A DNA stretch of 59,113 bases from an uncultured Lentisphaeria bacterium. Lineage in GTDB: Bacteria; Fidelibacterota; UBA8477; JABMPR01. The stretch is taken from the NCBI GenBank assembly GCA_964469505.1, contig CAYXZO010000005.1, positions 1 through 59,113 of the forward strand. Reading direction: 5' to 3'. Position 1 is the first letter of the stretch; the number at the start of each line of letters is the position of its first letter. This document shows positions 21,748-47,583 of the stretch, piece by piece. The notes beneath the pieces were generated by a model. That model had not been told where the DNA came from. It ran no database searches and saw nothing but the letters and a program-made list of their open reading frames with translations. The position numbers and the translations under genes were made by a program.

Positions 21748-22869
21748 ATGCATATGAAATCCCATTTGTTGAAGTTAGCCTTGAAATATCTCTGGCCAAT
21801 GGCCTTTATCATCTTTGCTTGTGAACAACCTAAACCCTGGAACGGATCGGAACTAATAGACAGTCCCTTTCAGACGGTTTCGGAAACTCTATTAGTTTCT
21901 CGAGCTCAGGTCAGTGCGATAAACGATTCCTTTCAGTGGTCCGAAGCTGATCGGGTTTATCTAGGTAACTATCGCGGCGCCACTGGAGCTTTTTTCATAA
22001 AATTTTCGGTTCCGGATAGCATCAGAAGTCTGGCTCCCGATAGTATCCGACTACAATTGCGTTTAGGCGTAACATATTACGATAGCAGCATTCTTAATGC
22101 TGATAGCCTTAAAATAATGGTTGTGCTTTTACCTGATTTTAATGATCTCTCCGTATCCCGACTGATCCCGGACAGCGCTTTCACCCATTCCACTTTGCCT
22201 TTATTAAAGCAAATCCAGGTCATTCAGTTTTCTTTGGATACGTTGTCACACTTTACTAGTCGTGACACATTTGCCATTGGCCTATTCTCACCGGATAGCG
22301 GTATGGCTCAGCCACTATTTACCCCTGCAGCGGGAAGTGCTTTTAGACCGTTGATCCACTGGTACACTCAGGTTGACACTGATTCCGCAGCGGTATTTAG
22401 CTTGACCATAGACAGTACCCAGGTGGTATTTCAGGCACCAGAAGGCGCGATGGATTCAGGATTTGTGGTGGATGGACTGGTAGGTACCGGTTTTTCAATC
22501 CAAGCCGATATGGGTAATGACACCTCCCTGTTCGAACATCTACTGGAGGGCAAGCTGGAAATCCAATGGGATTCGGTGGCCAGCTATTTCCCCGCTGCAG
22601 CTGACAGCGGTAAAGTGGCGCTTACAATCGAGCTGCGAGAACCTGTCTACAATGGTAAAATGACGCTGCAATTGGGAGCGGCGGACCTGGACACGGCAGT
22701 TTATGACATAACCAATCTTATCGCTCCGGTGATCACCGGTGGCGATTCTCTGTTGACGGTGGAGGTTCGTCCTGTCAGCTCCTCGATTGCGGTACCCCAA
22801 GCTGTTTTAGCGTCAACTGATTTCCCGGTGAAGATATATCTATCTCTTGCTCAGAGGGTTAAACAGTGA
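21748..22869 (+). CDS. Hypothetical beta-rich lipoprotein (DUF4270-like by position and pattern)
   Basis: Lipobox IFAC; VYLGNY..ATGAFFIKF, DSIRLQL; follows the short GlgA-like gene as in Bacteroidota. Confidence 0.6.
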   Translation: MHMKSHLLKLALKYLWPMAFIIFACEQPKPWNGSELIDSPFQTVSETLLVSRAQVSAINDSFQWSEADRVYLGNYRGATGAFFIKFSVPDSIRSLAPDSIRLQLRLGVTYYDSSILNADSLKIMVVLLPDFNDLSVSRLIPDSAFTHSTLPLLKQIQVIQFSLDTLSHFTSRDTFAIGLFSPDSGMAQPLFTPAAGSAFRPLIHWYTQVDTDSAAVFSLTIDSTQVVFQAPEGAMDSGFVVDGLVGTGFSIQADMGNDTSLFEHLLEGKLEIQWDSVASYFPAAADSGKVALTIELREPVYNGKMTLQLGAADLDTAVYDITNLIAPVITGGDSLLTVEVRPVSSSIAVPQAVLASTDFPVKIYLSLAQRVKQ

Positions 22870-24161
22870 AAACGAAAGCTTTATTAATATCCTGCGCGTT
22901 ATTGATTGGATTCGTCCCTCTCACTCTCCTGGCACAATCACCTCGCAATAGTTTGGCGTACGGTAGTTTTATAGAAAGTACCAATCCCGGGGCTCAGGCA
23001 TTAGGCCATGCCCTTACTGCTTACCATGATTCCATTCAAATCATTGGGGACAATCCGGCGGAGATATACGGTTTCCCGCAAGTAATTGCATTTTTCAGCT
23101 TTGAAAGCCACTCCACTCGTTGGTGGGCGGAAGATCAGGAAATAACCAATGTTGGGGGAGGGTTTGGCTATTTTTCTTTGGCTTTGCCTTTAGGGCAAAG
23201 TGCCGGTGCCCTGTTGAGTGTCGAACCCATCACTGATCTTTCTACCTTGATGAATTACAACGCTGATTCCACGACTAACTTCTCCATGGCTCAAGGGGGT
23301 GGGATTTGGTCAATGGCGGTGGCTTTTGGTTACCGTTTGAACAAAATGACCAGCCTCGGGATGCGGTGGCGGTATCTCTATGGCCTATTTGATCGCCGGG
23401 AAGTTTTGAATTATCCCAACACCCGATATCGCTACAATATTTATCAATTGAAGGGCAGAATCGCCGGGCAGAATCTTCAGCTTGGTATTCAATACGCCTT
23501 TACCCCCCGGTTTAGATTGGGCGGCACTTTTGAATGGGGTTTATCCACGCCAGTATTTGAGGGTAATGCTTATGATTACGATATACCCAGGAGCGCCTCC
23601 AATGACGACTATTTGGAGAAATGGCGCTATTTCCAAGCGGTCGGACAACCGGGTGGCGTAGTTGATACCATACCGTATAACGAGGTCTTAGAGGATTGGC
23701 CTTGGAATGTTGAGATTGGGTTTGCTTATCGCCGAGGTAATGGAGGGCATTTCCTATTGGCGCTGTCTCAACGCTACTTTCCCCAGGAAGCTTTCCGACA
23801 CTCAGAGATTTTCCGTCTACCTGAAGGTTGGCGTGGGATGTCTTCGGGAGCGCTTAAATTCGGATATTACCAAAAGGCTAGGGATGAGGGGAGCCGTTTC
23901 TGGCTTGATCGACTCTCGTGGCGGGTTGGTTTTATTGCCAGAAATCTATACGTAACACCGCGGTCCAACGACTATGTACGGAGTACGCTGATGGCGGTGG
24001 GGTTCTCACTACCGGCTAAACATCACCGGTACCGTATCTCACCAACCTTTGTTTATGAGCACTGGCAAGCTGCCGACGGTTTGCCGGAGGAAAGTCGTTG
24101 GAGTTTAGAGGTTGGGTTATATTTACAAGAAAAATGGTTTGGAAAATTCAGAAGGAGATGA
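22866..24161 (+). CDS. Outer-membrane beta-barrel, FadL/OmpP1-like
   Basis: Signal peptide, PGAQALGHA and NPA plug-like motifs, alternating amphipathic strands, aromatic-rich C-terminus. Confidence 0.7.
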   Translation: MKTKALLISCALLIGFVPLTLLAQSPRNSLAYGSFIESTNPGAQALGHALTAYHDSIQIIGDNPAEIYGFPQVIAFFSFESHSTRWWAEDQEITNVGGGFGYFSLALPLGQSAGALLSVEPITDLSTLMNYNADSTTNFSMAQGGGIWSMAVAFGYRLNKMTSLGMRWRYLYGLFDRREVLNYPNTRYRYNIYQLKGRIAGQNLQLGIQYAFTPRFRLGGTFEWGLSTPVFEGNAYDYDIPRSASNDDYLEKWRYFQAVGQPGGVVDTIPYNEVLEDWPWNVEIGFAYRRGNGGHFLLALSQRYFPQEAFRHSEIFRLPEGWRGMSSGALKFGYYQKARDEGSRFWLDRLSWRVGFIARNLYVTPRSNDYVRSTLMAVGFSLPAKHHRYRISPTFVYEHWQAADGLPEESRWSLEVGLYLQEKWFGKFRRR

Positions 24162-28802: not shown

Positions 28803-28832
28803 AACCGAATGCATCTTCTCATTCGGTTTTTT
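28803..28832 (+). terminator. Intrinsic terminator-like hairpin immediately before the porV RBS
   Basis: AACCGAATG-CATCTTCT-CATTCGGTT (perfect 9 bp) then TTTT; RBS AAGGAG follows at about 28838. Confidence 0.65.
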
Positions 28833-28847
28833 ATTGAAGGAGTACAT

Positions 28848-30146
28848 ATGAGCCTTAAAAAACTTTGCTTGTTAATACTGGTTTTGATGGGTACTTCCCT
28901 GGTGCGAGCCCAGGGGACTGCTAGCGCTATATTTTTACTGATTTCTCCCGGCGCCCGAGCGGGTGGAATGGGTGAAGCTCAAGTAGCCGTGGCTAACGAT
29001 TCCTATGCCAGCTATTGGAATCCTGCCGGTTTGGCGTTTCAAAAAGGAGTTGAGATTTCAGGGATGCACGTTAATTGGCTCCCGGGGCTGGTCAATGATA
29101 TGTACTATGACTTCCTGGCCATACGAGTCCCCGCACCTAGTTATTACGGTGTAGTTGGGGGCCACATCATTTATTTGGATGCTGGAAAACAAACATGGAC
29201 CGATGATCAGGGAAATGAATTAGGAACCTTCAGTACTTATTTTACAGCGGCGGCTCTGAGCTATGCGACTATGTTAAGTGATAACTCATCAATTGGATTC
29301 AATTTCAAGGTGGTCTATCAGCACTTAGCAGATAGAGGTGTGACCGTAGGTTCCGAAAACACCAATCCAATTGCCACCAGCCTTGGCGTGGATATTGGTT
29401 ACCTTAAGCGGCACTGGCTGAGTGACCGATTGGATTTCGGAGTCTTACTTTCCAACGTCGGTCCTAAAGTCACTTTTAATGACAAAGCTCAGGCAGATCC
29501 TATGCCCACCAACCTAAAGGTGGGATGGAACTGGCGGGTGATTAAAGGGCAATACAATACACTGAACCTGGTCTATGATGTGAACAAACTATTAGTAGCC
29601 AGCTATCCCGATATGGATTGGGATGGTGATGGATTCGTAGGCGGCTATGACCAGCATGGCAATAAATACATTGTCAATAACGAGGTTTTACAAGGTGATT
29701 ATAACGCCAAGGGGCAAAGAGAAACAGCCCATACCGATCCATGGTATCTGGCTTTGGTTACTTCCTGGTTGGACGACTGGTACCTGGGTGGGGATCGGGA
29801 TCTGGATAACGACAAGAAAATCGGGGGTTACAATGCCGATACGGTAGCTGTAGCTGGCGGCAAATACAATTCATTGGGGCAATTGGAGGTCGGTAACGCT
29901 AAGCAGAGAAGTTTCAGCGCTGAATTACGTTCACTGGTTCATAACATTGGTCTCGAATACTGGTATAATCAAATGTTTGCTATCCGAGGGGGATTCTATT
30001 ACGACTATGAAGGTAAAATCATTGCTCCGACGCTGGGAATCGGCTTGCGTTACGGCAACTACGGCTTTGACTTCGGCTATATAGTGGAGAAGCAGGATCA
30101 TCCCCTGAACAACACTATGCGCTTTTCGCTGCTCATCAAATTTTAG
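28848..30146 (+). CDS. porV: Type IX secretion outer-membrane barrel PorV family, with EF-hand-like insertion
   Basis: ATG after AAGGAG; AIFLLISPGARAGGMGEAQVAVANDSYASYWNPAGLA, YVNWLPGLVNDMYY-like region, NVGPKVTF, PMPTNLKVG, GLEYWYNQMFAIRGG, HPLNNTMRFSLLIKF with terminal Phe. Confidence 0.85.
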   Translation: MSLKKLCLLILVLMGTSLVRAQGTASAIFLLISPGARAGGMGEAQVAVANDSYASYWNPAGLAFQKGVEISGMHVNWLPGLVNDMYYDFLAIRVPAPSYYGVVGGHIIYLDAGKQTWTDDQGNELGTFSTYFTAAALSYATMLSDNSSIGFNFKVVYQHLADRGVTVGSENTNPIATSLGVDIGYLKRHWLSDRLDFGVLLSNVGPKVTFNDKAQADPMPTNLKVGWNWRVIKGQYNTLNLVYDVNKLLVASYPDMDWDGDGFVGGYDQHGNKYIVNNEVLQGDYNAKGQRETAHTDPWYLALVTSWLDDWYLGGDRDLDNDKKIGGYNADTVAVAGGKYNSLGQLEVGNAKQRSFSAELRSLVHNIGLEYWYNQMFAIRGGFYYDYEGKIIAPTLGIGLRYGNYGFDFGYIVEKQDHPLNNTMRFSLLIKF

Positions 30147-30159
30147 CTCTCGTTTTTAA

Positions 30160-33030
30160 ATGAAACTTCGGCGAGTCCTGTTGGCGGGGGCCGCTATTGT
30201 TGCAGCCCTGGGAAATTCGAAAATCATTGCAGCTCCCCTAAACGCCCAGGAGCTGACAATTGCGGCCATTCGAATTTCATTTCAACCGGATCAGGACCCC
30301 GCAACCGCCGGAAATGGTCTCTTTGTGCTCTCCCCGGATTCACTCCCCGGTTGTTCCGAGCGACGCCTGGATCCGCCCCCACACGATAAAGAATATTTTA
30401 AAGACCACCTGAGAGCAGCCGCATTCTATTGGAGCAAGGTAAGCCGGGGAAACGTGACGATCGATACTTTACACTTGGCAATATTTCCACCTGGTGACAC
30501 TGCAGCCTATCAACTTGCTCATCCAATGTCATATTACCACCCATACATGGATTTGGGGGATACTCTATCCCATCTGGTGGAATTAATCCAGGAAGCGGTA
30601 AATCTGGCAGACGCCGATGTGGATTTCAGTGCCTTTAATACCTTTATTTTCTTTCATGCCGGCTTAGGAGGTGATTTCGCTTTCGTGCTGGATCCCACTC
30701 CCGGCAACATTCCCTCCACCTATTTAAGCCAATCAGATCTCGAAGCTTACGGGGGAATAGCAACTGACGAAGGACCGTTAACGAATGCTATTCTATTACC
30801 CGAAACCCAGAATTTTCTCCAATTTGCGGAAACTCGCACCCTTTTCAATCCCCAACCATGCAATTACCAGTTTGCCCTCAACGGTACGGTAGCGCTGTTG
30901 CTAGGATTCAGAATCGGCCTGACTCCGCTGTATGATCTTTATACCGGGAGAAGTCATGGCGGTCGCTTTGCTTTGATGGATCAGGGTAGCAATAATGCTC
31001 ATGGGCTGGTACCAGCTCCCCCCATGGCCTACAATCGAATTCAGGCCGGATGGGAAGAACCTCAGGTAGCCAATATCGGAGATAGTGTGAGTTTAGATAT
31101 TGATGGTCCACCGGTTAAAATTCCCATCGGTCCCGCGGAATACTATCTCATTGAAAATCGCCAACGCAACCTGGAGCAGCCTATCGGTTGGGAGACCTGG
31201 GTTGACAGCATAACCAGCGACACCTTTTCAGTACAGCTTTCTCCACGAGGGGTAGTGCTCCAGGTTGATGAACAAACGGCAGGACTGCCTGGAAACGGTT
31301 TGTTGATTTGGCATATTGCCGAATTCGCTCGTGGGCCTGATGATAATCCCAACGGCTTGGAACCGTATTTAATCAGCCTGGTGGAGGCCGACGGGGCACC
31401 GGATATCGGCTACCAGAGCCGGATTTTATTTGCCGATTTCCTGGAGACCGGCTGGTGGTTTGATCCCTGGTTTGCCGGAAACCAGGGGTGGTTCGATCTG
31501 AATCGTATCGAACCAGTAATAGGGGACAGTTTGCTGCGATTTACCTCTACCACCCATCCGGCAACCATAAGCAAGCGAGATTACCCAACCTATTTGCGGG
31601 TGGAGAATATCTCGGCTCCCGGGCGGACTATGCACTTCCGCGTTGGCTCCGATCGTGTTGTTCCTTTTCCTGAGGGAGCCGAATTAATTGGAATCGGAAG
31701 CGACTCCACGGGAGAGCCGCTGGTGTGGTTGGATGATGGTCAGGTTTATCTCGTCGGTTACAGTCTTACATCAGATACACTTAAGCCGATTGTTCAATTC
31801 TCCCGGAGACGTGTTTTTAGCTCACCTTCGGATAGTCTGATAGGTTTTTCGGATCCCATATTTGTGATCTTCAATGGCCGGGGTAATGCATTCTATAACT
31901 ATTTGACCGACACGCACATCGAGGATACTACGGGAGGCCCGGTCAAGCAAATTATCCGCACTGAGGATTCGCTTGCATATCTTGTCAGTAAAAACCAATC
32001 CAGTACGATTTTCACCATTCCTGTTGATCTGAGCGCTCCACCGACAGCCCAGGTTACCATTCCTTTGGAAGTGGAGCGTTTCTACCGCTTCGATCCGGAT
32101 TGGGCCTGGGCTACGTCAGATTCGTTGTATACTCCCGTTTCACATCCTTATGCCATTAGTGGAGACGTTTATCAGCCGGTTGAAGTTTTTGAAATGCAAC
32201 CTTCAAGTATGCATCGAACCCCAGTTGGATGGCTGTATGTGGATGAGGATAATCAGTTGGTATTCAGGGCAATAGGGGATACCATTAAAGTTCTGCGGAC
32301 TGCTTTTACCGGCACATTTCTACCTTTTGACATACCCACCGAGCAGGGGCTGGAGGGCATATTTTTTACCACCGGGTATGGTGAGGTCATCAGCAGTAGC
32401 GGTCTAGCGTATTATGGTTCTCCTTTCGTTCTGGATGGTGAACCGTTGGCAAGGCCGGTCATCGTTTCAGCTTTTGATGCTCCAATCGCTTTCTTTTTCC
32501 CTTATGAGGATGGCTATGGGGTTTATGATCTACAGGGTAAGAGGTTGGAAAGAACAATCCTCCCTGAGAGTCCCGCTATTAAAGATGTGTTCTATTCAAA
32601 TCGTGAAACGTTAATAGCTAGCGAATTTTATCTCCTGCGTCTACCCCTTGAGAGTGAATCATCAATTAATCCAAACTTCGCCATAAATTCCCTTCGGGAA
32701 CGAGCAGCTTGGTGGAGTGATTCGTCATTAACTCATGAGGTGGCTTTGATTGAGCCCGGCTCAGGATTCATCTATCCCAATCCGATTCGGGGAAAGACTG
32801 CCACCGTCCGCGTGCATTTAGGGGCGGTAACCTCCTGGCGGATACGCATTTTTACCACTGCGGGCAACGAAGTTATCGATGTTGCCCCTGTGCCCGTTTC
32901 GTCTCATGCTGTAAATGAGTGGCGCTGGGATGTGAGTAATCTCTCCAACGGGCTTTATCTGATACAGCTCGAGGCGGAAGGAAATGGGAAAAAAGAACAG
33001 GTTTTAATCAAAGCGGCGGTGGTGCGGTGA
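30160..33030 (+). CDS. T9SS type A CTD-containing protein with M6 (immune inhibitor A)-like domain lacking HExxH
   Basis: IFFHAGLG, GTVALLLGFRIGLTPLYD in place of GVFAHEYGHxLGLPDxYD, ALMDQGS, EYYLIENRQ, GLLIWHI, LVEADG; C-terminal IYPNP...NGLYLIQL...KAAVVR. Confidence 0.8.
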   Translation: MKLRRVLLAGAAIVAALGNSKIIAAPLNAQELTIAAIRISFQPDQDPATAGNGLFVLSPDSLPGCSERRLDPPPHDKEYFKDHLRAAAFYWSKVSRGNVTIDTLHLAIFPPGDTAAYQLAHPMSYYHPYMDLGDTLSHLVELIQEAVNLADADVDFSAFNTFIFFHAGLGGDFAFVLDPTPGNIPSTYLSQSDLEAYGGIATDEGPLTNAILLPETQNFLQFAETRTLFNPQPCNYQFALNGTVALLLGFRIGLTPLYDLYTGRSHGGRFALMDQGSNNAHGLVPAPPMAYNRIQAGWEEPQVANIGDSVSLDIDGPPVKIPIGPAEYYLIENRQRNLEQPIGWETWVDSITSDTFSVQLSPRGVVLQVDEQTAGLPGNGLLIWHIAEFARGPDDNPNGLEPYLISLVEADGAPDIGYQSRILFADFLETGWWFDPWFAGNQGWFDLNRIEPVIGDSLLRFTSTTHPATISKRDYPTYLRVENISAPGRTMHFRVGSDRVVPFPEGAELIGIGSDSTGEPLVWLDDGQVYLVGYSLTSDTLKPIVQFSRRRVFSSPSDSLIGFSDPIFVIFNGRGNAFYNYLTDTHIEDTTGGPVKQIIRTEDSLAYLVSKNQSSTIFTIPVDLSAPPTAQVTIPLEVERFYRFDPDWAWATSDSLYTPVSHPYAISGDVYQPVEVFEMQPSSMHRTPVGWLYVDEDNQLVFRAIGDTIKVLRTAFTGTFLPFDIPTEQGLEGIFFTTGYGEVISSSGLAYYGSPFVLDGEPLARPVIVSAFDAPIAFFFPYEDGYGVYDLQGKRLERTILPESPAIKDVFYSNRETLIASEFYLLRLPLESESSINPNFAINSLRERAAWWSDSSLTHEVALIEPGSGFIYPNPIRGKTATVRVHLGAVTSWRIRIFTTAGNEVIDVAPVPVSSHAVNEWRWDVSNLSNGLYLIQLEAEGNGKKEQVLIKAAVVR

Positions 33031-36000
33031 AACGACCCCTGGGGTTGTTTTGCATCATTCTGCTACTTGGGGTAAAACTTTCCGCCCAAGCCCGTTTTAC
33101 TCACTCTGAGCTGACCTGGCGTACCTTGGAAGGGGAGCACTTTGTAGTGCATTACCATCAGGGCACCGCCTGGACCGCCACTGAAGTTTTAAATGTGGCG
33201 GAGGACATCTATAAGCCGATAACCGAACTATACCAATACCAACCTGAAAACAAGACTCATCTAATCATCTGGGATACGGATGATTTCAGCAATGGTGCTT
33301 CGTACTACTTTGATAACAAGATAGATATATGGGCCATGCCTTTGGATTACAAGCTAAGGGGCTCTCATTATTGGTTACGTGATGTGGTAACCCACGAGTT
33401 TACCCACATCGTCAGCTTACGAGCGGCCCGGAAATTCAAAGGTTCAATCTCCGCCAGCTATTTTCAGTTCATTCAATACGAACCGGAACGGCGGGACGAT
33501 GTGTTATACGGCTATCCCAACGCCCTGGTATCCTATCCTTTGCCCAGCGTGGTTGTACCCATGTGGTGGGCGGAAGGCGTGGCGCAACATCAGGCCAATG
33601 GAAGCAGATACGATTACTGGGACAGTATTAGGGATATGATTCTCCGGGACCGCTGGTTGCATAAACGTCTTCTGTCCTTTAATGAAATGGATGGTTTCGG
33701 CAAAGGGGGAATAGGCAATGAAAGCGTGTATAACCAGGGGTTCTCTTTTGTGAATTACCTTGCAGAACATTATGGTGATGAAATCCTGGAAAGAATCACG
33801 GAGCGCTTGACGAATCCGTGGAACTATTCGTTTTATAAAGCTCTTTCAGAGCTTACAGGTCGCTCTAAAACGCAACTTTACCGAGACTGGATTGCTTACT
33901 TAACCGAAAGATTCAAAGCCGAGCTACCTAGCACGGATGAACAAACTTCCGTCTCGATTTTTCAAACCCGCGGGTCAGCCAATTTCTATCCGCGACATCA
34001 TTCAGCCTCAGGACGTTTGGCATTCATCTCCAACATGGGGGAGGCCTATTTCGGTAGAACGGCCCTGTTTGTACAACAGCCTGGTGAAGAACCGCGACGA
34101 GTAACCGCTGCTGCCGGTTTTGCTTGGAGTCCAATTACCGACACCCTAGTGGTGGTTAAAAAAAGCTTCTATGACCAGGGAATTCCAGGCGGTTATTCAT
34201 TCAAAGATACAGAAGGGCCCCATTTTTCCTTTTTGCACAAGAAGGTTAAGGCTACGTGGCGATTGCCATTGCAGGGCTCTCGCTATTTTGATCTTTATCT
34301 GTTGCATCCCGATAATCCTGACAAACTTAGAAGGTTGACCAACGGTGCTCGGGCGAAAAACCCGGTTTGGTCACCTGATGGCAAACAAATAGCGTTTATT
34401 AATCTCCGGGATGGCACCAATAACATTTGTATTGTGGAACCGGCTCACCCCGATAGCGTACGGCAGCTAACCCGATTTACCCCCGGTACCCAGATTTACA
34501 CCTTATCCTGGTCTCCTGATGGGAGCCGGCTGTTGTTTGACCGGGCGACAGGGTACAACCGGGATATTTACATGTACGATTTCAGAACGAAGGAAGTGCG
34601 ACCAGTATTTGCCGAGAAGTGGGACGAGCGAAATCCTTTTTGGATCACCGATTCCACCCTGTTGTTCAGCGATGATCGTACCGGAATCTTTAACCTTTAC
34701 TGGGCTGAGCTGAACCTGGGCAAGGTTCGGCAGCTTACCGCCGTTAATGGGGGAGCTTTTCAGGCTGAACTATGGCAGGATACACTTTTTTTCAGCTACT
34801 ATGACAGTTTGGGCTACAAATTAGCCTATCTTCCCTTGAAAAAGGCTTTATGGAAGGCTGCTGAATCAGGTTCTCTTAGCTACTTAAGCAGAATACTTAA
34901 GGCCGACTATGTGCGGGAATTGGCGCCGCGTCAGGGAGTGCCCTATCGTTTCCAGGCCGGCCCCATGTTGATTGCACCTCGGTTACAAGTGGAGTATGAT
35001 GCCGCCAAAGGTAGTACTTATCTCAAACCTGGGTTTTATTTCTTTTCCAGTGAATGGATAAACAAATTCAACCTTCTGGGGGGATTTGATTTCGGGTTTA
35101 ACAAAGATTTGGACTTTTTCTTTCTAGCCGAATATCGCGGTTTTCGCCCCCTCTTACGCCTGGAATTCTACCGACTGGTGCGCAATACACAGGAGGAATT
35201 GAGTTATCTCAATGGTATCTACAAGGTTCAAAGCCGACTTCAGTTTACCATGACTCAGGGGGTAGCGTCCATAGAATTGCCCATTGGCGGCAGCCACAAT
35301 CTTATGGGAGATTTCACGTTAACCAATTATAACACATACCTCGCGCCTCATGTGCTGAACGGACTTCCGCTGGGGGGGATCAGCTATGATTATTTCAAGG
35401 GATGGGATGCCGGTTTGATCTATCGAGGAGACTGGTTGAAACCTGAACCGTCCCAGGACATCAACCCCCAGGGATTGCAGGTGGAGATCGGCGCGCGACG
35501 CAATCATCATTTGTTCTTGAGCGGATATGGCTACAACGAAGATACGGGAAATTGGGGTAATATTTACGACACCTTCGATTATTGGCGATGGAGTTTCAAT
35601 GTTTTCTACGCCCGTTCCTTGCCCGCAATCTTAGGTGGGAAAATTGGTCTGCGGGGAATAGGCGCTGGACTAAGTCGTAATTCAATCGATTCCTTTTTCT
35701 ACGAGTTTGGTGGTGGAGCTCCAGGGCTTAGAGGTTACCCCTACTTTTCCCTTGGTGGAACCAGAAAGTTAATTTTTTCTGGCTTCTGGCGTCGGCCGCT
35801 CTTTCGGGATGCCTATTGGAAGGTAGGGCATTATACATTGAAGGATGTTTATTTCGGTATTCATTGGCAAGTAGGGACGGCATGGGTCCCCGATAGCTCT
35901 TTGTGGAAACCTGGCTTGGATTTCAATGAAAGAGGTCGTGAACTTCTGAGAGATCTTAATCAGGCCTCCTGGTTACAGGATTTTGGATTCAGCTTGCGTG

Positions 36001-36149
36001 TGGGAGGTTTTTCGTTTTACGCCTATCCCACAGCGCTGGAAATCTCCGCATACTACGCACCTGAACAATTAGCTTACCGGGAAGACCCGGATATTAAATA
36101 CGGACAGGAATGGCGCTTTTATTGGAGCCTTTTATTTGCATTCAATTAA
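33027..36149 (+). CDS. Gluzincin-like peptidase plus TolB/PD40 propeller plus C-terminal outer-membrane barrel
   Basis: Signal peptide; VVTHEFTH...WWAEGVAQ; NPVWSPDGKQIAF, LSWSPDGSRLLF PD40 repeats; amphipathic strands ending YWSLLFAFN. Confidence 0.78.
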   Translation: MKRPLGLFCIILLLGVKLSAQARFTHSELTWRTLEGEHFVVHYHQGTAWTATEVLNVAEDIYKPITELYQYQPENKTHLIIWDTDDFSNGASYYFDNKIDIWAMPLDYKLRGSHYWLRDVVTHEFTHIVSLRAARKFKGSISASYFQFIQYEPERRDDVLYGYPNALVSYPLPSVVVPMWWAEGVAQHQANGSRYDYWDSIRDMILRDRWLHKRLLSFNEMDGFGKGGIGNESVYNQGFSFVNYLAEHYGDEILERITERLTNPWNYSFYKALSELTGRSKTQLYRDWIAYLTERFKAELPSTDEQTSVSIFQTRGSANFYPRHHSASGRLAFISNMGEAYFGRTALFVQQPGEEPRRVTAAAGFAWSPITDTLVVVKKSFYDQGIPGGYSFKDTEGPHFSFLHKKVKATWRLPLQGSRYFDLYLLHPDNPDKLRRLTNGARAKNPVWSPDGKQIAFINLRDGTNNICIVEPAHPDSVRQLTRFTPGTQIYTLSWSPDGSRLLFDRATGYNRDIYMYDFRTKEVRPVFAEKWDERNPFWITDSTLLFSDDRTGIFNLYWAELNLGKVRQLTAVNGGAFQAELWQDTLFFSYYDSLGYKLAYLPLKKALWKAAESGSLSYLSRILKADYVRELAPRQGVPYRFQAGPMLIAPRLQVEYDAAKGSTYLKPGFYFFSSEWINKFNLLGGFDFGFNKDLDFFFLAEYRGFRPLLRLEFYRLVRNTQEELSYLNGIYKVQSRLQFTMTQGVASIELPIGGSHNLMGDFTLTNYNTYLAPHVLNGLPLGGISYDYFKGWDAGLIYRGDWLKPEPSQDINPQGLQVEIGARRNHHLFLSGYGYNEDTGNWGNIYDTFDYWRWSFNVFYARSLPAILGGKIGLRGIGAGLSRNSIDSFFYEFGGGAPGLRGYPYFSLGGTRKLIFSGFWRRPLFRDAYWKVGHYTLKDVYFGIHWQVGTAWVPDSSLWKPGLDFNERGRELLRDLNQASWLQDFGFSLRVGGFSFYAYPTALEISAYYAPEQLAYREDPDIKYGQEWRFYWSLLFAFN

Positions 36150-36162
36150 GTTACGGCCCGTG

Positions 36163-37110
36163 ATGAAGTGGTCACCGGTATCCAGGCTAATCCACTCTCG
36201 ATTTAATGTCTCTCCCGGACAAATATATTCTAGAGTCTCTCGACTATTTCGCCCATTCTCAAGGCTGCGTATCTCAAGTGGGGGAAAAGTGGCATCGGTT
36301 GCAATATCAATTTGTCTTTTCATAGTTCCGGTTTTAGGTGGGAATTCACTGGTATTGAAGGGCCGTTCAAAGAACAATATGGGAGGAGTAGCCACTATAG
36401 CCCAAAGCAGGTATCTTTTTCTGGCTGATACTAGTAAAGCCTCCAAAGACAGCACCCTGGGGAAGCGTCCCATGGCATTCCGAGGCCCCAAGGGCAAACG
36501 TTTCCTTTCTTCTCTACTGATACCCGGGTGGGGACAATATCAACGGCAACACTGGTTGCGTGCCGGTTCTTTTGCCCTGGCGGAAGCATTAGGATGGTAT
36601 CTAAATATCACCTTGAATCGAAAAGGTAGTGATTACGAAGAACGTTATATCCAGTATGCCGATGAGCACTGGGACTATAATGCCTGGTTGCAAACGGGGC
36701 AGCAAACCCCAGATGGGGAGCAATACTGCGGATATTATCTTTCCCATGAGATTCCGTACCGAGAAATAAATGGAGTCAAATATCCATACAAAGATCAGCA
36801 TTATTATGAGAATATTGGCAAATACAATGAGTTTTATTGCGGATGGGATGACTACGCTGACCATTGGCGCGACAGCCTAGGTGTGGAATATACTCCCCAT
36901 AAAGTTCAGTACATTGAGTATCGGGATATTTCCAATTCCAGTTATCGGCAGGCCCAGAGAATTCTGTCCTTCATCCTGTTGAATCATTTTGTGGCCGCTT
37001 TTGAGGCCGCTTTCGGGCCCGATTGGAATATCGGTGGTCAGAAGGCCACATTACGGACCTTTTTTGCCCAGGAACTATTCATGCTCCAGTTCAGGATCCA
37101 ATTACCATGA
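36163..37110 (+). CDS. Hypothetical membrane/exported protein (DUF5683-like); start uncertain
   Basis: FLSSLLIPGWGQY, QHYYENIGKYNEFYCGWDD, ILLNHFVAAFEA; stop overlaps next ATG. Confidence 0.65.
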   Translation: MKWSPVSRLIHSRFNVSPGQIYSRVSRLFRPFSRLRISSGGKVASVAISICLFIVPVLGGNSLVLKGRSKNNMGGVATIAQSRYLFLADTSKASKDSTLGKRPMAFRGPKGKRFLSSLLIPGWGQYQRQHWLRAGSFALAEALGWYLNITLNRKGSDYEERYIQYADEHWDYNAWLQTGQQTPDGEQYCGYYLSHEIPYREINGVKYPYKDQHYYENIGKYNEFYCGWDDYADHWRDSLGVEYTPHKVQYIEYRDISNSSYRQAQRILSFILLNHFVAAFEAAFGPDWNIGGQKATLRTFFAQELFMLQFRIQLP

Positions 37111-37865
37111 GAATTAAGAAGTATTTCAGCTTATCCATTGTGTTTGCCTTTCTAGTAGCTTGCGGCAGCCACGAGCCCTTAATGGATGCCAAGGATATCC
37201 CGGGGACCTTCAAGCGCGGGTTGGAATTATTTAAAAAGAAGAATTGGGAGCGGGCGGAGGAGGTTTTCAATTTCGTTTTATATAATGATCCGGCAGGGAA
37301 GTACGCTGATGATGCTCAGTTCTACCTGGCCGAGACCTATTTCAAAAGGGGCGAATACGAAACGGCTATGGACGAGTATGATCGGCTGCTAAACCGCATG
37401 CCCGATTCGCCTTTTGCTGAAAAAGCTTACTGGCGGAAAGCTCAGGCGGCCTACAAAACTTCCCCGGATTACCGACTTGATCAAGAGCCGACCCTGAGGG
37501 CCATTGAAGTGATTCAAAACTTTCTCGCCACTTATCCCAATAGTGAACACCGCTCAGAGGCGGAAAAATGGTTGGCTGCGTTATGGGACAAATTAGCCCA
37601 TAAGCTATATGGAGCGGGGCGGCTGTACGAAAATATGGGTGAATACGAAGCGGCACTCATATACTACCGATCCACCTGGAAGCAATATCCCAACTCGAAG
37701 TATGCCATTAAAAGTCGTCTGCATGCCGCCCGCTGTTTGTTAGAGCTTGGTCAAACCAAAGAGGCTAAGAATCTATTGCGAAGAATCAGCAAAGGTTCTT
37801 TAGATAAAAAGGATAAATACCTGAAAGCCAGACTATTAGCCCGGCTCAAGAGCGGATCCTCATAG
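37107..37865 (+). CDS. bamD: Outer membrane protein assembly factor BamD
   Basis: ATG 37107 (ATGA overlap), lipobox LVAC, ADDAQFYLAETYF, PDYRLDQEPTLRAI, LAHKLYGAGRLY. Confidence 0.88.
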   Translation: MRIKKYFSLSIVFAFLVACGSHEPLMDAKDIPGTFKRGLELFKKKNWERAEEVFNFVLYNDPAGKYADDAQFYLAETYFKRGEYETAMDEYDRLLNRMPDSPFAEKAYWRKAQAAYKTSPDYRLDQEPTLRAIEVIQNFLATYPNSEHRSEAEKWLAALWDKLAHKLYGAGRLYENMGEYEAALIYYRSTWKQYPNSKYAIKSRLHAARCLLELGQTKEAKNLLRRISKGSLDKKDKYLKARLLARLKSGSS

Positions 37866-44397: not shown

Positions 44398-46620
44398 GTG
44401 GCTAAAGACATTTTCGGCAACCACAAAGTAAATACCGCCATCATCATCGTATTGGCTTTTATGTTTGTCTCAGTCATCTATTTCCCCGATCGAATTTGGA
44501 GACATGAGCGGGAGCTTCGGGATATTGCCCGTTTCAGGATGGAGGCCATCAATCAAGGGGAAAAACTGTTCTATATCTTGACCGAGGAATACACCACTAG
44601 GCCAGATATCCTGTTCCATGTAGTAAACGCTTCCCGCGATAGTGCCCTGGAGAGACTCGGCGATTCCAATGCAACATTCCCAGAGACTCTGCGGTACGTC
44701 TTTCCAGGTAAACAGCTTACCATTAAATACACTCCTGAGTACCGTCAGAAATATGTCGAAGAACACGTAGCCTTATTCAAGAAACTAAAACCCAATCATT
44801 ATTTCCCACCAGAACAGGCCAAAGCCTTCATCGAAACAGTGAAGGTGTACTTCGATCGGGGCAATTTCGTAGGCGAACAATCCGTGCGGCTTGGGAAAGA
44901 CAGTCTGAGATTTACTGTCCCCGACAAGTATGACATCCTTTATCAGAACGGCAAATTTAGGATGTTTAACGTACTCACCGGTAGTGCTACTGAAGATCCT
45001 GGGTTCGCTAATCCATTGGTTAATGCGGTCCTGGATTCCCTGGAACGCAATCCGGATTTAAGTGGAGAGGTCGTATTTACCGGATTGTACCATGAGCCGA
45101 TAACCTTTTCATATACTGTTCCCGACAATTTCTCGCAGCTACTGGAACGCTCTAAAACCCAGCTTAAAAAATTCTTTAAAATCGATCCTCTGGACTCTCT
45201 GGCATACGGTGACACTCTTTACAGCATAGCTCTGGAGAAGTTTTTCACTTTCGACTCCATTCCGGAGCAATTCGAGATTACTTACCGGGATACCACCGGG
45301 GATACTGTGATCGTGAATGTCCCGGTTGATATGGAAGGGATGCAGGACGGTCTTGATAAACGGCGTAACACTCTTTATAAAGCACTCTCCGGTGGCTATC
45401 GCGAGCCCAATCCCATTATCGCTCAGAAAATCATCGATGCCGTCAAGGACTCTTTGGCCAGCGATTCGGTGTTTATCGGCACTCATAAGATTACCCTAGA
45501 CTTGTCTGAAATTCCCTTCAAAATCAGAATTGACCGTACCATTCCGCTGAACCAAATCCAGATCAATAAGGATATGTACACCCGTCTGGAACCGTGGAAG
45601 ATTGGAGTAAATCTGGATTCGGTAGCTGTGGAAGCCGTGGAGTATGTGGCTGATACATTGATGAAGAGCAGGGATTTCAAAGATTGGCAAATCTATGCTG
45701 CTGAAGGGGATTCCCTTAATTTGTTCATCCCCGAAGACTTCCTGAGAATGTACGATGACATGAATCTGCGTTTGTATAAGGCCCTAACCGGTGAATACAC
45801 CAACATTCACGACTATGCATACAATGTGATTCGTAAAGTTGAAGCTTTAGCACAGCAGGACTCCGGTTCTTATTTCGGTGAACATGTGTTAGATATTCCC
45901 GCTGATACGATCGTGGCGCGGGTTGGCTCCGACTATCCGGAAATATATGACTCTACCTTCGTGGTTTATAAAGATACGGTGGTCCAACTTCCCGATAGTA
46001 GTTTTTACGGTGTTTGGTTCCGGCTGCAGAGATATGCCGTACCGGTAGAACAGCCAGACACTCTGCCCTTCGTAAAAGCTGTTGACGGCCAGTTGTATTA
46101 CAATTTCCATCAAGCTGACTCCACCCAGGATTTCATGGTGTTTGAGTTGCGGGATAAACGACACGAAAAGGCCTTCTGGGGGGACAATCGTTATCTGGTG
46201 AGCTTCAACAACGACAGCACTCTGGATGCGGTTTTCCTCTTGATCAGTGACACCACCGGAGCTGATTCCGCCTTGCAAGCTAGTTGGAAACCCTTCACCG
46301 TCGTTTCACCTGAATTCGTGGTGGGGCCGGAAGAAAAGAGTCTGATTATGGCCAAAGACTCTTTCTACGCCTGGGTTGACACAGTTGTAGCTTTAAAGTA
46401 CCGTAAAATTCAGATTAAAAAGCCGTACAAGTTCGCTAATGAACTCAAATACTGTCCTGTGACCGGTTTACCCTTTAGAATTACTGTTAGGTACATGGTC
46501 AACCTGCGGATTGAATCGCCCATCGAGGAGAAAGTCACTTTCAGACGCTATCTGTTCTTCACGGAAGTCGATACCAACCACGGCTATATCCAGGACGGTG
46601 AGCCTAGCTGGTCCAAGTGA
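44398..46620 (+). CDS. Large membrane-anchored hypothetical protein with diverged internal repeats
   Basis: 740 aa, single N-terminal TM, recurring LY(K/N)(A/V)L(T/S)G motifs, C-terminal CPVTGLPF...HGYIQDGEPSW. Confidence 0.75.
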   Translation: MAKDIFGNHKVNTAIIIVLAFMFVSVIYFPDRIWRHERELRDIARFRMEAINQGEKLFYILTEEYTTRPDILFHVVNASRDSALERLGDSNATFPETLRYVFPGKQLTIKYTPEYRQKYVEEHVALFKKLKPNHYFPPEQAKAFIETVKVYFDRGNFVGEQSVRLGKDSLRFTVPDKYDILYQNGKFRMFNVLTGSATEDPGFANPLVNAVLDSLERNPDLSGEVVFTGLYHEPITFSYTVPDNFSQLLERSKTQLKKFFKIDPLDSLAYGDTLYSIALEKFFTFDSIPEQFEITYRDTTGDTVIVNVPVDMEGMQDGLDKRRNTLYKALSGGYREPNPIIAQKIIDAVKDSLASDSVFIGTHKITLDLSEIPFKIRIDRTIPLNQIQINKDMYTRLEPWKIGVNLDSVAVEAVEYVADTLMKSRDFKDWQIYAAEGDSLNLFIPEDFLRMYDDMNLRLYKALTGEYTNIHDYAYNVIRKVEALAQQDSGSYFGEHVLDIPADTIVARVGSDYPEIYDSTFVVYKDTVVQLPDSSFYGVWFRLQRYAVPVEQPDTLPFVKAVDGQLYYNFHQADSTQDFMVFELRDKRHEKAFWGDNRYLVSFNNDSTLDAVFLLISDTTGADSALQASWKPFTVVSPEFVVGPEEKSLIMAKDSFYAWVDTVVALKYRKIQIKKPYKFANELKYCPVTGLPFRITVRYMVNLRIESPIEEKVTFRRYLFFTEVDTNHGYIQDGEPSWSK

Positions 46621-46641: not shown

Positions 46642-47583
46642 ATGCTGGGAATTGCCGTCGACAACCAAGCATTGCACTATGCCCAGTTAGTGGACACCGG
46701 CGGGATAACTTCCATTGAAAGTGTTGGTTCGCTCGCACTGACAATTCCCACGGAAGCCTTTCTCACCGCTCCGCTACCGGCTTCATTCACCCATACCTTG
46801 GTCCAGCTTCGGGAAAAACTGGAGTTTCCCGATCGGCGGGTAATCTGCGTACTCCCCATGAGATGGGTGCCCCATTGTTTTCAACGAATGGATAAAGAAT
46901 TACCCGAATCCGATTGGCAGAAATTTTTGGACTGGCAAGGCGGCACCATCATGGAGGTGAATCCCCGTGAATATCGGTTGATACACCAGGAACTTGAGTT
47001 GGACAACGCCACCGACGTAAGGTATTTCATAAGTGTGGCATTGCCCGTAAAACTGCACATCAAACTGAAAAATGCTTTCGAGCAAGCCGATTGGAATCTG
47101 GAAAAACTCATTCTGGAATCGGAGGCGCTTGGTAACTATTTGTTACTGGATTCCATCGAGGCTGAAAGTCAGGATCTCACGGGGCTCTTCAGAACCCGTA
47201 ACCCCCAGGAAGGTCAATTTCTTCTTTTTAAAAACCAAGAATGGGTGGGGGAGACCTACTTGTTTCGTGACGCCGAAGAAACCTGGCGCACTGAGGTTGT
47301 CTGGACGGCCGTGAACGACACCTTCGCCATAGTCGATGAAGTGCGTGATGCCCTTAATGGCTTACCATCCACCCAGGACTCCCCATTTTTAAACTGGTAT
47401 TACCTGTGTCAAGCGGACGATATGCCTGAGTGGCGTGAAAATCTGGAACATTTGGGGGTGGGCCGACCGCTCTTCATGGAAGATTTATTTACGCTCAGAG
47501 ATATGCCGGAGGAAAAGCTCTCTACCTTGGCCGGCGCCATGGGAGCCTTAATTCCTTTATTGCCGTTAAATCATGCGGATTAA
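46642..47583 (+). CDS. PilM-like (actin-fold) protein, divergent
   Basis: MLGIAVDNQALHYAQL and FISVALP...AFEQADWNLEKLILESEAL resemble PilM segments; followed by an INLL-starting gene. Confidence 0.5.
   Translation: MLGIAVDNQALHYAQLVDTGGITSIESVGSLALTIPTEAFLTAPLPASFTHTLVQLREKLEFPDRRVICVLPMRWVPHCFQRMDKELPESDWQKFLDWQGGTIMEVNPREYRLIHQELELDNATDVRYFISVALPVKLHIKLKNAFEQADWNLEKLILESEALGNYLLLDSIEAESQDLTGLFRTRNPQEGQFLLFKNQEWVGETYLFRDAEETWRTEVVWTAVNDTFAIVDEVRDALNGLPSTQDSPFLNWYYLCQADDMPEWRENLEHLGVGRPLFMEDLFTLRDMPEEKLSTLAGAMGALIPLLPLNHAD

What the first reader, a model, noticed from the sequence alone, without database searches (positions are those of the whole stretch)
30160..33030. T9SS-secreted M6 pseudoprotease directly after porV
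At 30871-30936 GTVALLLGFRIGLTPLYD aligns residue for residue with immune inhibitor A GVFAHEYGHDLGLPDEYD, with H to L, E to L, H to F and D to P, while the Met-turn (ALMDQGS) and flanking motifs (EYYLIENRQ, GLLIWHI, LVEADG) are retained. A full-length ORF with all zinc ligands removed suggests a selected non-catalytic role (scaffold, substrate trap, T9SS accessory) in the slot where Bacteroidota keep the PorU sortase beside porV.
Basis: partly seen in the sequence, partly recalled or inferred. Interest (0 to 1): 0.62.

Follow-up and report, generated by a model that had tools for sequence, protein, structure and literature searches.

The report
Dead M6 protease gene after porV
This gene encodes a secreted protein with the fold of a zinc protease but none of the catalytic residues. 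It is strongly conserved and always sits directly after the type IX secretion gene porV. NCBI already curates the family as an "inactivated M6-like metalloprotease", but nobody has studied its function.

Summary
ORF 30160-33030 (956 aa) has a signal peptide, an immune-inhibitor-A (M6) fold, a beta-propeller and a T9SS type A C-terminal domain. In the M6 motif HExxHxxGxxD, both His, the Glu and the Asp are replaced by L246, L247, F250 and P256. The Met-turn and the flanking motifs are kept.

The loss is ancient. None of 455 relatives keeps the Glu or a full ligand set, and different lineages keep different relics (HQxxH..S, xxxxH..N, xNxxS..D). Selection is purifying (dN/dS 0.06-0.18), and the dead catalytic centre is among the three most conserved stretches of the protein.

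The window comes from a Candidatus Marinimicrobia genome. The order porV, M6-like gene, HExxH-propeller protein, DUF5683-like gene is found in all 86 Marinimicrobia loci. It also occurs in Ignavibacteria and in unnamed lineages with different flanking genes. In four of those contexts porU sits just upstream of porV, so the protein is not a PorU substitute.

NCBIfam NF052323, "T9SS-dependent M6-like inactivated metalloprotease", already names the family. Its seed-like sequences come from Ignavibacteria. The window protein scores 289 bits against a cut-off of 600, so it is a divergent ortholog.

My best reading is a non-catalytic surface partner of PorV, but the function is untested.

The parts
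28809..30146 (+). porV-family outer-membrane beta-barrel gene. The true start is probably M14 at 28848.
   Evidence: NF033709 PorV/PorQ family 260.4 bits (cut-off 90). The PorV equivalog scores 201.4, below its cut-off of 250; PorQ scores 57 and PorV2 66. PDB 6h3i_F PorV, E 1e-25. The stop lies 13 nt before the M6-like ATG.
30160..33030 (+). M6-like inactivated metalloprotease ORF, 956 aa
   Evidence: NF052323 scores 289.4 bits (E 5.9e-86), below the cut-off of 600.
30160..30240 (+). Sec-type signal peptide (approximately aa 1-27)
   Evidence: Read directly from the sequence MKLRRVLLAGAAIVAALGNSKIIAAPLNAQ. The model has a helix at aa 2-18.
30241..31659 (+). M6 (immune inhibitor A)-fold domain, aa 28-500
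   Evidence: The fold search returns only InhA2 4yu5/4yu6 as significant hits. TIGR03296 E 1.3e-10. The family profile scores E 9e-28 against an active M6 domain.
30883..30936 (+). Degenerate HExxHxxGxxD motif (GTVALLLGFRIGLTPLYD), with L246, L247, F250 and P256 in place of H, E, H and D
   Evidence: Gap-free BLASTP alignment to an active M6 domain. Column counts in 286 and in 455 relatives.
30970..30990 (+). Met-turn ALMDQGS. M273, D274 and G276 are invariant and Q275 nearly so.
31138..31395 (+). M6 core motifs that are retained: EYYLIENRQ (31138-31164), GLLIWHI (31297-31317) and LVEADG (31378-31395). They are separated by a beta insertion of about 33 aa (roughly aa 341-373) that the active M6 reference lacks.
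31660..32700 (+). Fast-evolving all-beta region predicted as a beta-propeller (approximately aa 501-847)
   Evidence: AlphaFold2 model and propeller-dominated fold hits. Column entropy 2.0-3.3 bits (mostly 2.2-3.3), against 0.8-1.0 at the catalytic centre. Relatives have FG-GAP hits.
32770..33027 (+). T9SS type A C-terminal sorting domain (aa 871-956)
   Evidence: TIGR04183 32.2 bits (cut-off 23) and PF18962 30.1 bits (cut-off 27). The family profile hits the CTD chain 8glj_D.
33027..36149 (+). Downstream partner gene, 1040 aa. It has a signal peptide, an MA-clan peptidase-like domain with an intact HEFTH motif and a WWAEG motif, a TolB/Tricorn-like propeller and a C-terminal domain that is probably an Omp85-like barrel. 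Its GTG start overlaps the M6-like stop by 4 nt.
36136..37110 (+). DUF5683-like gene, the fourth member of the conserved block
   Evidence: PF18935 weak hit. Homologs lie in the same position in Marinimicrobia, Ignavibacteria and other loci.
37023..37865 (+). YfiO/BamD-like lipoprotein gene. It follows the block in Marinimicrobia only.
   Evidence: PF13525 79 bits. Synteny.

Best explanation
The gene encodes the Marinimicrobia ortholog of a widespread family of FCB-group bacteria: a catalytically dead M6 (immune inhibitor A-like) metalloprotease exported by the type IX secretion system.

Shown here:
- The architecture is a Sec signal peptide, an M6 fold, a beta-propeller and a type A C-terminal domain.
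- The catalytic Glu and all three zinc ligands are absent, here and throughout the family.
- Selection is strongly purifying and is strongest on the former catalytic centre.
- The gene order porV, M6-like, HExxH-propeller-barrel protein, DUF5683-like is fixed across deeply diverged lineages. porU lies immediately upstream of porV in several of them.

Inferred:
- After Sec export and T9SS translocation, the protein is handed to the co-encoded PorV through its C-terminal domain. It stays at the cell surface as a non-catalytic subunit, much as PorU and PorZ are held by PorV and PorQ.
- Its conserved, now hydrophobic, former substrate cleft binds a polypeptide or glycan partner instead of cutting it. 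The partner could be T9SS cargo or the neighbouring metalloprotease-barrel protein.
- The variable propeller faces outward.
For: Fold and motif.

Loss of catalytic residues: none of 455 relatives has Glu at the catalytic position or a complete H/H/D ligand set.

Selection: dN/dS is 0.07-0.18 for the whole gene and 0.06-0.15 for the M6-like domain in 11 pairs. For comparison, porV gives 0.03-0.10 and glyA 0.01-0.07. The 20-aa windows at 161-180, 241-280 and 401-420 are the most conserved in the protein.

Export signal: the C-terminal domain passes the curated thresholds.

Synteny: porV lies directly upstream in all 86 species-level Marinimicrobia loci. It also does so in every one of 10 further loci with other flanks (L088-L097).

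Coupling: the downstream start overlaps the M6-like stop by 4 nt in the window and in L001/L002, L004/L005, L090 and L097, and by 1 nt in L096.

porU: it is encoded just upstream of porV in L088, L092, L094 and L096.

Curation: NCBIfam names the family as T9SS-dependent and inactivated.

Precedents: cargo genes are encoded next to their shuttle genes (PMC12618676). PorU is held at the surface by PorV (PMC8564354).
Against: - There is no experimental or transcript evidence. The one RNA run gave no coverage.
- No interaction prediction could be run.
- The window protein falls below the NF052323 cut-off (289 against 600) and matches the model only in its N-terminal half and, weakly, its C-terminal end. 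The central propeller region of the model is not matched.
- Within Marinimicrobia the whole neighbourhood is syntenic, so adjacency there is weak evidence by itself. The case rests on the 10 non-syntenic or distant loci.
- Conserved polar residues (D71, H75, H166, E215, D274, Q275, H385, E409, D411) could form another site. I could not place them in 3D.
- Whether the C-terminal domain is retained or cleaved is unknown.
Confidence: 0.55

Rival explanations
1. It is an ordinary T9SS cargo: a surface binding protein or adhesin that captures peptides, proteins or particles for a heterotroph. Its place beside porV would reflect only co-transcription in an old operon, not a role in the secretion machinery.
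For: NCBIfam uses "T9SS-dependent" for cargo families, for example the M36 family NF038113. The propeller half is hypervariable, as expected for an environment-facing ligand binder. The type A C-terminal domain is cargo-like.
Against: Typical cargo genes are variable in presence and position. This one was found in 476 of 599 pattern matches among species representatives, and it was fixed next to porV in every locus inspected across deeply diverged lineages. The most constrained part is the dead catalytic centre, not the propeller.
Confidence: 0.3
2. It is still an enzyme and uses a different catalytic or metal site built from other conserved residues, for example H75, H166, E215, D274, H385, E409 or D411.
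For: About 65 positions are at least 97% conserved, and many of them are polar. D274 and Q275, next to the Met-turn, are specific to this family, since the active M6 reference has LMAAGS there.
Against: H166 (FHAG against VHAG in the reference ORF printed, read by eye because that stretch lies outside the computed alignment), H385 (WHI against WHI) and the ENRQ motif are shared with an active M6 domain. E409 and D411 are not shared with that reference (LVEADG against LVQANG). The shared residues look like structural core rather than a new site. The four replaced positions are hydrophobic or Pro and are themselves conserved. Sister clades keep different single relics, which is a pattern of decay and not of a rebuilt site.
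Confidence: 0.08
3. It replaces the PorU sortase, acting as the C-terminal signal peptidase in lineages that lack PorU next to porV.
For: No PorU homolog is present in the 59-kb window or within 8 kb of the gene in 86 Marinimicrobia loci. The gene is adjacent to porV.
Against: It has no catalytic residues. It coexists with a bona fide PorU in the order porU-porV-M6-like in L088, L092, L094 and L096. PorU in L088 scores 641.6 bits on NF033707 against a cut-off of 420. It lies on the other side of porV from porU.
Confidence: 0.02
4. It is a recently decayed pseudogene or an assembly artefact.
For: None was found.
Against: The ORF is intact and identical in independent metagenomes. Orthologs are intact in hundreds of species. 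dN/dS is far below 1.
Confidence: 0.01

Closest known systems
NCBIfam NF052323, T9SS-dependent M6-like inactivated metalloprotease (T9SSA_dep_M6i). Seed-like members come from Ignavibacteria and Melioribacteraceae.
   Same: - An M6-like N-terminal domain without HExxH, a propeller region and a type A C-terminal domain.
- The same gene order: porV upstream, and the HExxH-propeller protein and the DUF5683-like gene downstream.
   Different: - The window protein scores 289 bits against a cut-off of 600 and matches only model positions 40-544 plus the C-terminal domain.
- All 19 homologs scanned from the first two searches (nearly all Marinimicrobia by name or synteny) score 316-568 bits.
- The relic residues differ: L-L-F-P here, against A/S/G/N-N-S/N-D in the Ignavibacteria clade.
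- porU is not adjacent in Marinimicrobia.
Immune inhibitor A / InhA2 of Bacillus (MEROPS family M6; PDB 4yu5, 4yu6) and other TIGR03296 M6 domains
   Same: - The catalytic-domain fold, the active-site helix position and the Met-turn.
- The ENRQ, WHI and EADG-type motifs.
   Different: - No zinc ligands and no general base.
- Two family-specific insertions (aa ~46-70 and ~219-240), each with a nearly invariant Cys (C65 and C234).
- A further beta insertion of about 33 aa (roughly aa 341-373).
- A propeller and a T9SS C-terminal domain in place of the InhA C-terminal domains.
- TIGR03296 scores 41.7 bits against a cut-off of 110.8.
PorZ and PorU, the CTD-bearing surface subunits of the P. gingivalis T9SS attachment complex
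   Same: - Secreted by the T9SS with a type A-like C-terminal domain.
- Encoded next to porV (PorU), or built as propeller plus C-terminal domain (PorZ).
- The top fold neighbours of the full-length model are BT4673 and BT4663, the proteins to which the PorZ architecture was likened.
   Different: - PorU is a C25 cysteine peptidase and is present separately in relatives.
- PorZ has two propellers and no M6 domain.
- No sequence match to PorZ was found beyond the C-terminal domain, and that only in a relative at 29 bits.
- No functional data exist.
Cognate cargo-shuttle gene pairs of the T9SS (type B CTD proteins with PorP/SprF-like proteins)
   Same: A secreted CTD protein is encoded directly beside the outer-membrane barrel that receives it (PMC12618676).
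   Different: Here the C-terminal domain is type A, the barrel is PorV-like, and the barrel gene precedes the cargo gene rather than following it.

Membership tests
MEROPS M6 / TIGR03296 M6 metalloprotease domain | Catalytic-domain fold like immune inhibitor A | tested here: met
   The only significant PDB neighbours are 4yu5/4yu6: E 4e-8 to 2e-7, probability 1.0, TM-score 0.50 normalised to the query.
MEROPS M6 / TIGR03296 M6 metalloprotease domain | HExxHxxGxxD zinc-binding and catalytic motif | tested here: not met
   L246, L247, F250 and P256 replace H, E, H and D; only the Gly residues are kept.
MEROPS M6 / TIGR03296 M6 metalloprotease domain | Score above the curated domain cut-off | tested here: not met
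   TIGR03296 scores 41.7 bits against 110.8. Pfam PF05547 was not hit at E<=0.01 in 20 members.
MEROPS M6 / TIGR03296 M6 metalloprotease domain | Met-turn downstream of the motif | tested here: met
   M273 is invariant in 285 of 286 sequences and aligns with the LMAAGS Met of an active M6 domain.
NCBIfam NF052323 T9SS-dependent M6-like inactivated metalloprotease (equivalog) | Whole-protein score at or above 600 bits | tested here: not met
   289.4 bits, matching aa 28-496 to model positions 40-544.
NCBIfam NF052323 T9SS-dependent M6-like inactivated metalloprotease (equivalog) | M6-like domain lacking the catalytic motif, plus a type A sorting domain | tested here: met
NCBIfam NF052323 T9SS-dependent M6-like inactivated metalloprotease (equivalog) | Orthology by conserved gene neighbourhood with members above the cut-off | tested here: met
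   Members above the cut-off are P0224, P0257 and P0281. P0386 and P0409 belong to the Ignavibacteria seed-like clade and were not scored themselves. All five have porV directly upstream. P0257, P0386 and P0409 also have the HExxH-propeller protein and the DUF5683-like gene downstream, which align to the window genes at E<=1e-129 and about 1e-15.
T9SS type A substrate | N-terminal Sec signal peptide | tested here: inconclusive
   A hydrophobic N-terminus is visible in the sequence and in model helix 2-18. No signal-peptide predictor was available.
T9SS type A substrate | C-terminal type A sorting domain above the curated cut-off | tested here: met
   TIGR04183 scores 32.2 against 23, and PF18962 scores 30.1 against 27.
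T9SS type A substrate | The genome encodes a T9SS (SprA/Sov, PorKLMN, PorV) | tested here: inconclusive
   Only the PorV-family gene was seen. No other T9SS core gene was found among the roughly 40 window ORFs scanned. The whole genome was not available.
PorU (T9SS sortase) | C25 cysteine-peptidase domain, NF033707 | tested here: not met
   No hit to NF033707 or Peptidase_C25. tblastn with Ignavibacteria PorU finds only C-terminal-domain-level similarity.
PorZ (A-LPS delivery protein) | Two seven-bladed propellers plus a retained C-terminal domain; NF052228 | tested here: not met
   The window protein has no NF052228 hit. It has one propeller-like region preceded by an M6 domain. Retention of the C-terminal domain cannot be tested here.

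The most novel reading that the evidence does not exclude
The dead M6-like protein and the neighbouring HExxH-propeller-Omp85-like protein are unrecognised core parts of the T9SS sorting and attachment machinery in non-Bacteroidia FCB lineages (Ignavibacteria, Marinimicrobia and others). They are encoded as porU-porV-M6-like-MA/propeller/barrel-DUF5683. On this reading the pseudoprotease would act as a PorV-docked, PorZ-like presenter of cargo or lipid-glycan anchor. The live metalloprotease-barrel would process or insert partners.
Probability: 0.3. Interest if true: 0.7.

Novelty: new member of a known kind. Interest (0 to 1): 0.45.

Why it matters
The T9SS has been dissected almost entirely in Porphyromonas and Flavobacterium. 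This work points to a four- or five-gene module headed by porU and porV that is conserved across deeply separated FCB lineages. The module includes an ancient pseudoprotease and a live metalloprotease fused to a propeller and a probable Omp85-like barrel.

If these proteins belong to the attachment step, they would show how cargo is sorted outside the Bacteroidia. They would also add a clear bacterial example of a protease fold re-used as a non-catalytic subunit.

In practice, Marinimicrobia orthologs are at present annotated only as "T9SS type A sorting domain-containing protein". They could be named correctly.

Tried and rejected
- **PDB sequence searches:** the single protein and a 134-sequence profile both found no M6 entry. 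The link appeared only after folding the N-terminal domain alone, because the full-length fold search was swamped by propellers.
- **Pfam Peptidase_M6:** no hit in 20 members.
- **PorV2 lead (NF052325):** the porV genes next to the M6-like gene in eight loci are PorV-like (180-203 bits) and not PorV2 (45-61 bits).
- **Seed clade of NF052323:** two homolog searches from the Marinimicrobia side did not reach it. It was found only through the 50%-cluster representative search followed by a third homolog search.
- **HExxH strings elsewhere:** three homologs have HEISH-type strings at about aa 206, and two have one in the propeller. None lies in the motif column, so I take them as chance.
- **Transcript evidence:** the one related metatranscriptome has no coverage.
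- **Promoter and terminator scan:** counts did not exceed the shuffled controls.
- **Literature:** five full-text searches found no paper on this family or on T9SS in Marinimicrobia.
- **C-terminal domain of the downstream protein:** Pfam gave nothing for the window copy. A profile search of the PDB gave only a non-significant TamA hit (E 0.74) at the FFAGG..RGY motif.
- **Plasmid tblastn:** it returned one hit, which served as the active-M6 reference.
- **Alternative metal site:** mapping conserved residues in 3D was impossible because the model coordinates are not exposed.
Full report
**What is there**

The window is a stretch of core chromosome from a Candidatus Marinimicrobia (Neomarinimicrobiota/Fidelibacterota) bacterium. 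It is found in hydrothermal-vent and microbial-mat metagenomes. The surrounding genes are housekeeping: ispG, mrdA, rodA, glyA, nrdR, ftsEX, hrcA-grpE-dnaJ, icd and leuS.

ORF 30160-33030 on the + strand encodes 956 aa. The stated start of 30871 is four codons early.

**Is it really a dead M6 protease?**

Yes, on four lines of evidence.

- Curated models: NCBIfam NF052323 ("T9SS-dependent M6-like inactivated metalloprotease") matches aa 28-496 at E 5.9e-86. The M6 domain model TIGR03296 matches at E 1.3e-10. Both are below their trusted cut-offs.
- Fold: an AlphaFold2 model of aa 25-500 (pLDDT 86.2, pTM 0.89) has as its only significant PDB neighbours the four chains of B. anthracis immune inhibitor A2. 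These give E 4e-8 to 2e-7, probability 1.0 and TM-score 0.50 normalised to the query. The next hit, ADAMTS4, has E 0.04. The rmsd values are large (about 21 Å). I read that as differing domain arrangement, so the match is at the level of fold and not a close superposition.
- Direct alignment: a tblastn search of plasmids turned up a bona fide M6 domain in Phyllobacterium (TIGR03296 216.6 bits against 110.8). BLASTP aligns it to the window protein at E 4e-12, with the motif region free of gaps. HEFGHFLGLPD lies over LLLGFRIGLTP. Both zinc-binding His, the catalytic Glu and the third ligand Asp are therefore replaced by Leu, Leu, Phe and Pro.
- Retained motifs: the Met-turn and the ENRQ, WHI and EADG-type motifs line up in the same alignment. 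A family profile scores E 9e-28 against the active domain.

**Rest of the protein**

The full-length model (pLDDT 82.7, pTM 0.84) shows an all-beta region at about aa 500-845. Its structural neighbours are beta-propellers. A beta-sandwich follows at aa 870-954 and passes the curated thresholds for the T9SS type A sorting domain. The N-terminus looks like a Sec signal peptide.

**Is the loss ancestral and selected?**

I collected 455 family proteins through three homolog searches and one exhaustive search of 50%-identity representatives. The representative search found 1303 clusters at E<=1e-3 and 364 at E<=1e-30.

None of the 455 has Glu at the catalytic position, and none keeps all three ligands. 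The states are specific to lineages:

| State at the four sites (H, E, H, D) | Where it is found |
|---|---|
| L-M-F-P (window: L-L-F-P) | Marinimicrobia |
| A/S/G/N-N-S/N-D (Asp kept) | Ignavibacteria |
| H-Q-H-S (both His kept, Glu to Gln) | six representatives |
| L-M-H-N (second His kept) | further groups |

Different relics in different clades imply that activity was lost before these lineages split. The ligands then decayed independently.

Eleven ortholog pairs at 74-89% protein identity give Nei-Gojobori dN/dS of 0.07-0.18 for the whole gene. The M6-like half gives 0.06-0.15 and the C-terminal half 0.08-0.25. For comparison, porV gives 0.03-0.10 and glyA 0.01-0.07.

Across 286 distinct sequences the most conserved 20-residue windows in the whole protein are 161-180, 241-280 and 401-420. 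These cover the dead active-site helix, the Met-turn and neighbouring core motifs. The propeller is close to unconstrained in sequence.

**Surroundings**

The upstream gene (28809-30146) belongs to the PorV family. NF033709 scores 260 bits, and F. johnsoniae PorV 6h3i_F matches at E 1e-25. It is closer to PorV than to PorQ or PorV2. It ends 13 nt before the M6-like ATG.

The downstream gene (33027-36149, 1040 aa) starts with a GTG that overlaps the M6-like stop by 4 nt. It encodes an MA-clan peptidase-like domain with an intact HEFTH motif and a WWAEG motif. These are followed by a TolB/Tricorn-like propeller and a C-terminal domain of about 400 aa. The HExxH motif is kept in all 65 aligned copies (the window protein and 64 orthologs).

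Its C-terminal domain carries an FFxGGxPGL(K/R)GY motif. That motif gives a non-significant hit to the TamA barrel. Two orthologs have weak precomputed Omp85 (PF01103) hits. It is therefore probably an Omp85-like barrel.

A DUF5683-like gene follows. In Marinimicrobia, bamD/yfiO and nadD come after it.

**How far the linkage holds**

In 86 loci from GTDB species representatives, nearly all of them Marinimicrobia, porV is directly upstream. The downstream genes follow wherever the contig allows. Taken alone this is weak evidence, because the whole region is syntenic. Even so, the genes upstream of porV vary (nrdR-ABC-trm112 in some, a TRAP transporter in others), so porV marks the upstream edge of the conserved stretch.

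The decisive evidence comes from distant family members found through the representative search:

- L089: hisS-ssb-dCMP deaminase, then porV, M6-like, MA/propeller protein.
- L090: accA, then porV, M6-like, MA/propeller protein, DUF5683-like.
- L091: accBC-gcvH, then porV, M6-like.
- L088: porU, porV, M6-like. Here PorU scores 641.6 bits on NF033707 against a cut-off of 420.
- L096: porU, porV, M6-like, MA/propeller/Omp85 protein.
- Two Ignavibacteria genomes of 3.36 and 4.69 Mb: porU, porV, M6-like, MA/propeller protein, DUF5683-like, der. The larger genome has two tandem copies of porU.

The downstream proteins of the four loci tested (L089, L090, L092 and L094) align over their full length with the window's. 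The MA/propeller proteins give 28-33% identity at E<=1e-129, and the DUF5683-like proteins give E 1e-15 to 1e-18. The block is thus an old unit that has survived complete turnover of its flanks.

The idea of a T9SS accessory gains real support. The "PorU slot" idea does not. porU lies on the other side of porV (PMC8564354) and coexists with the M6-like gene in several lineages. No porU is present in the 59-kb window or within 8 kb of the gene in the Marinimicrobia loci. Whether Marinimicrobia encode PorU elsewhere could not be tested.

**Known or new?**

NCBIfam NF052323 names exactly this kind of protein. Sequences that pass its 600-bit cut-off include P0326 (1013 bits), P0224, P0259, P0247, P0257 and P0281. 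The clade nearest the model is Ignavibacteria/Melioribacteraceae, where one record already carries the NCBI name. NF052324 (PorU2) and NF052325 (PorV2) carry adjacent accession numbers.

The window protein (289 bits) and all 19 homologs scanned from the first two searches (nearly all Marinimicrobia by name or synteny) (316-568 bits) fall below the cut-off. In public records they are called only "T9SS type A sorting domain-containing protein". Five full-text searches found no paper on the family.

I therefore class the finding as a new, divergent member of a known kind. What I could not find documented elsewhere:

- the conserved module beyond porU and porV;
- the family-wide, relic-bearing pattern of inactivation;
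- the concentration of constraint on the dead catalytic centre.

**Mechanism**

The points that are shown are export signals at both ends, an M6 fold without catalytic residues, purifying selection focused on the former cleft, and obligate genetic linkage to porV.

My inference runs as follows. The protein crosses the outer membrane through the T9SS and is received by the co-encoded PorV through its C-terminal domain. It then remains at the surface as a non-catalytic subunit. Its conserved cleft binds a partner and does not cleave it. The partner could be cargo, an anchor glycolipid or the neighbouring metalloprotease-barrel protein.

Two precedents bear on this. PorU and PorZ carry a C-terminal domain and are held by PorV and PorQ. 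Cargo genes are encoded next to their shuttle genes (PMC12618676).

One lead, which is not a test: the best structural neighbours of the full-length model are BT4673 and BT4663. These are the proteins to which the propeller-plus-CTD architecture of PorZ was likened (PMC5121618).

The main rival is a plain surface binding cargo. A cryptic alternative active site cannot be excluded without 3D mapping. However, part of the conserved polar set (H166, H385 and the ENRQ motif) is shared with active M6 domains.

**Verdict**

The finding is moderately interesting: the pseudoenzyme itself is already curated, but its fixed place in a conserved porU-porV module points to unstudied T9SS biology outside the Bacteroidia.

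Noticed in passing
window 33027-36149 (+): A 1040-aa protein whose start overlaps the stop of the dead M6-like gene by 4 nt. It has an intact HEFTH motif and a WWAEG motif (MA-clan peptidase-like), a TolB/Tricorn-type propeller and a C-terminal domain of about 400 aa. That domain carries an FFxGGxPGL(K/R)GY motif reminiscent of Omp85/TamA loop 6. No curated family covers the whole protein. The HExxH motif is kept in all 65 aligned copies (the window protein and 64 orthologs) and in the Ignavibacteria copies.
   Followed up: partly
window 36136-37110 and 37023-37865 (+): A DUF5683-like gene follows the block in every lineage seen. In Marinimicrobia a YfiO/BamD-like lipoprotein gene and nadD come next, which places the module beside an outer-membrane biogenesis gene. 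The annotated TTG start of the BamD-like ORF overlaps the previous gene by 88 nt and is probably too early.
   Followed up: partly
window 28809-30146 (+), aa ~275-365: The PorV-like protein has an Asp/Gly-rich insertion relative to F. johnsoniae PorV, with DWDGDG and GGDRDLDNDKKIGG motifs. A hairpin followed by a T-run at 28803-28828 overlaps the first ATG, so the real start is probably Met14 at 28848.
   Followed up: no
P0247, P0277, P0280, P0281, P0309, P0321 (locus L088 for P0281): A sister clade keeps both zinc-binding His residues but has Gln for the catalytic Glu and Ser for the third ligand (GI[IV]AHQFGHxLGLPSLF). This could be an intermediate that binds zinc but is inactive. These proteins pass or sit near the NF052323 cut-off, and in the one locus inspected (L088, P0281) the gene lies in the order porU-porV-M6-like.
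   Followed up: partly
L094 671-8760: Two tandem PorU-like (Peptidase_C25) genes, 68% identical, precede porV in a 4.69-Mb Ignavibacteria-type genome. NCBIfam has a separate "PorU2" model (NF052324).
   Followed up: no
window 30160-33030, aa 65 and 234: Two nearly invariant cysteines lie in the two insertions that distinguish this family from active M6 domains (aa ~46-70 and ~219-240, just before the dead active-site helix). They may form a disulfide that closes over the former cleft.
   Followed up: no
window 44398-46620, 9447-11120, 46642-48595, 21748-24161 (+): Several sizeable ORFs (740, 557, 313, 340, 373 and 431 aa) have no match in the libraries each was scanned against (Pfam for all six; NCBIfam also for the 740- and 557-aa ORFs). 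The pair at 21748-24161 lies upstream of a TPR protein gene and glyA, and unannotated ORFs of similar size sit in that position in distant Marinimicrobia (L001, L003).
   Followed up: no
window 11117-12373 (+); L096 766-2154: A GWxTD-domain protein is encoded in the window. Another lies a few genes upstream of porU-porV in the unrelated locus L096. This may be coincidence.
   Followed up: no
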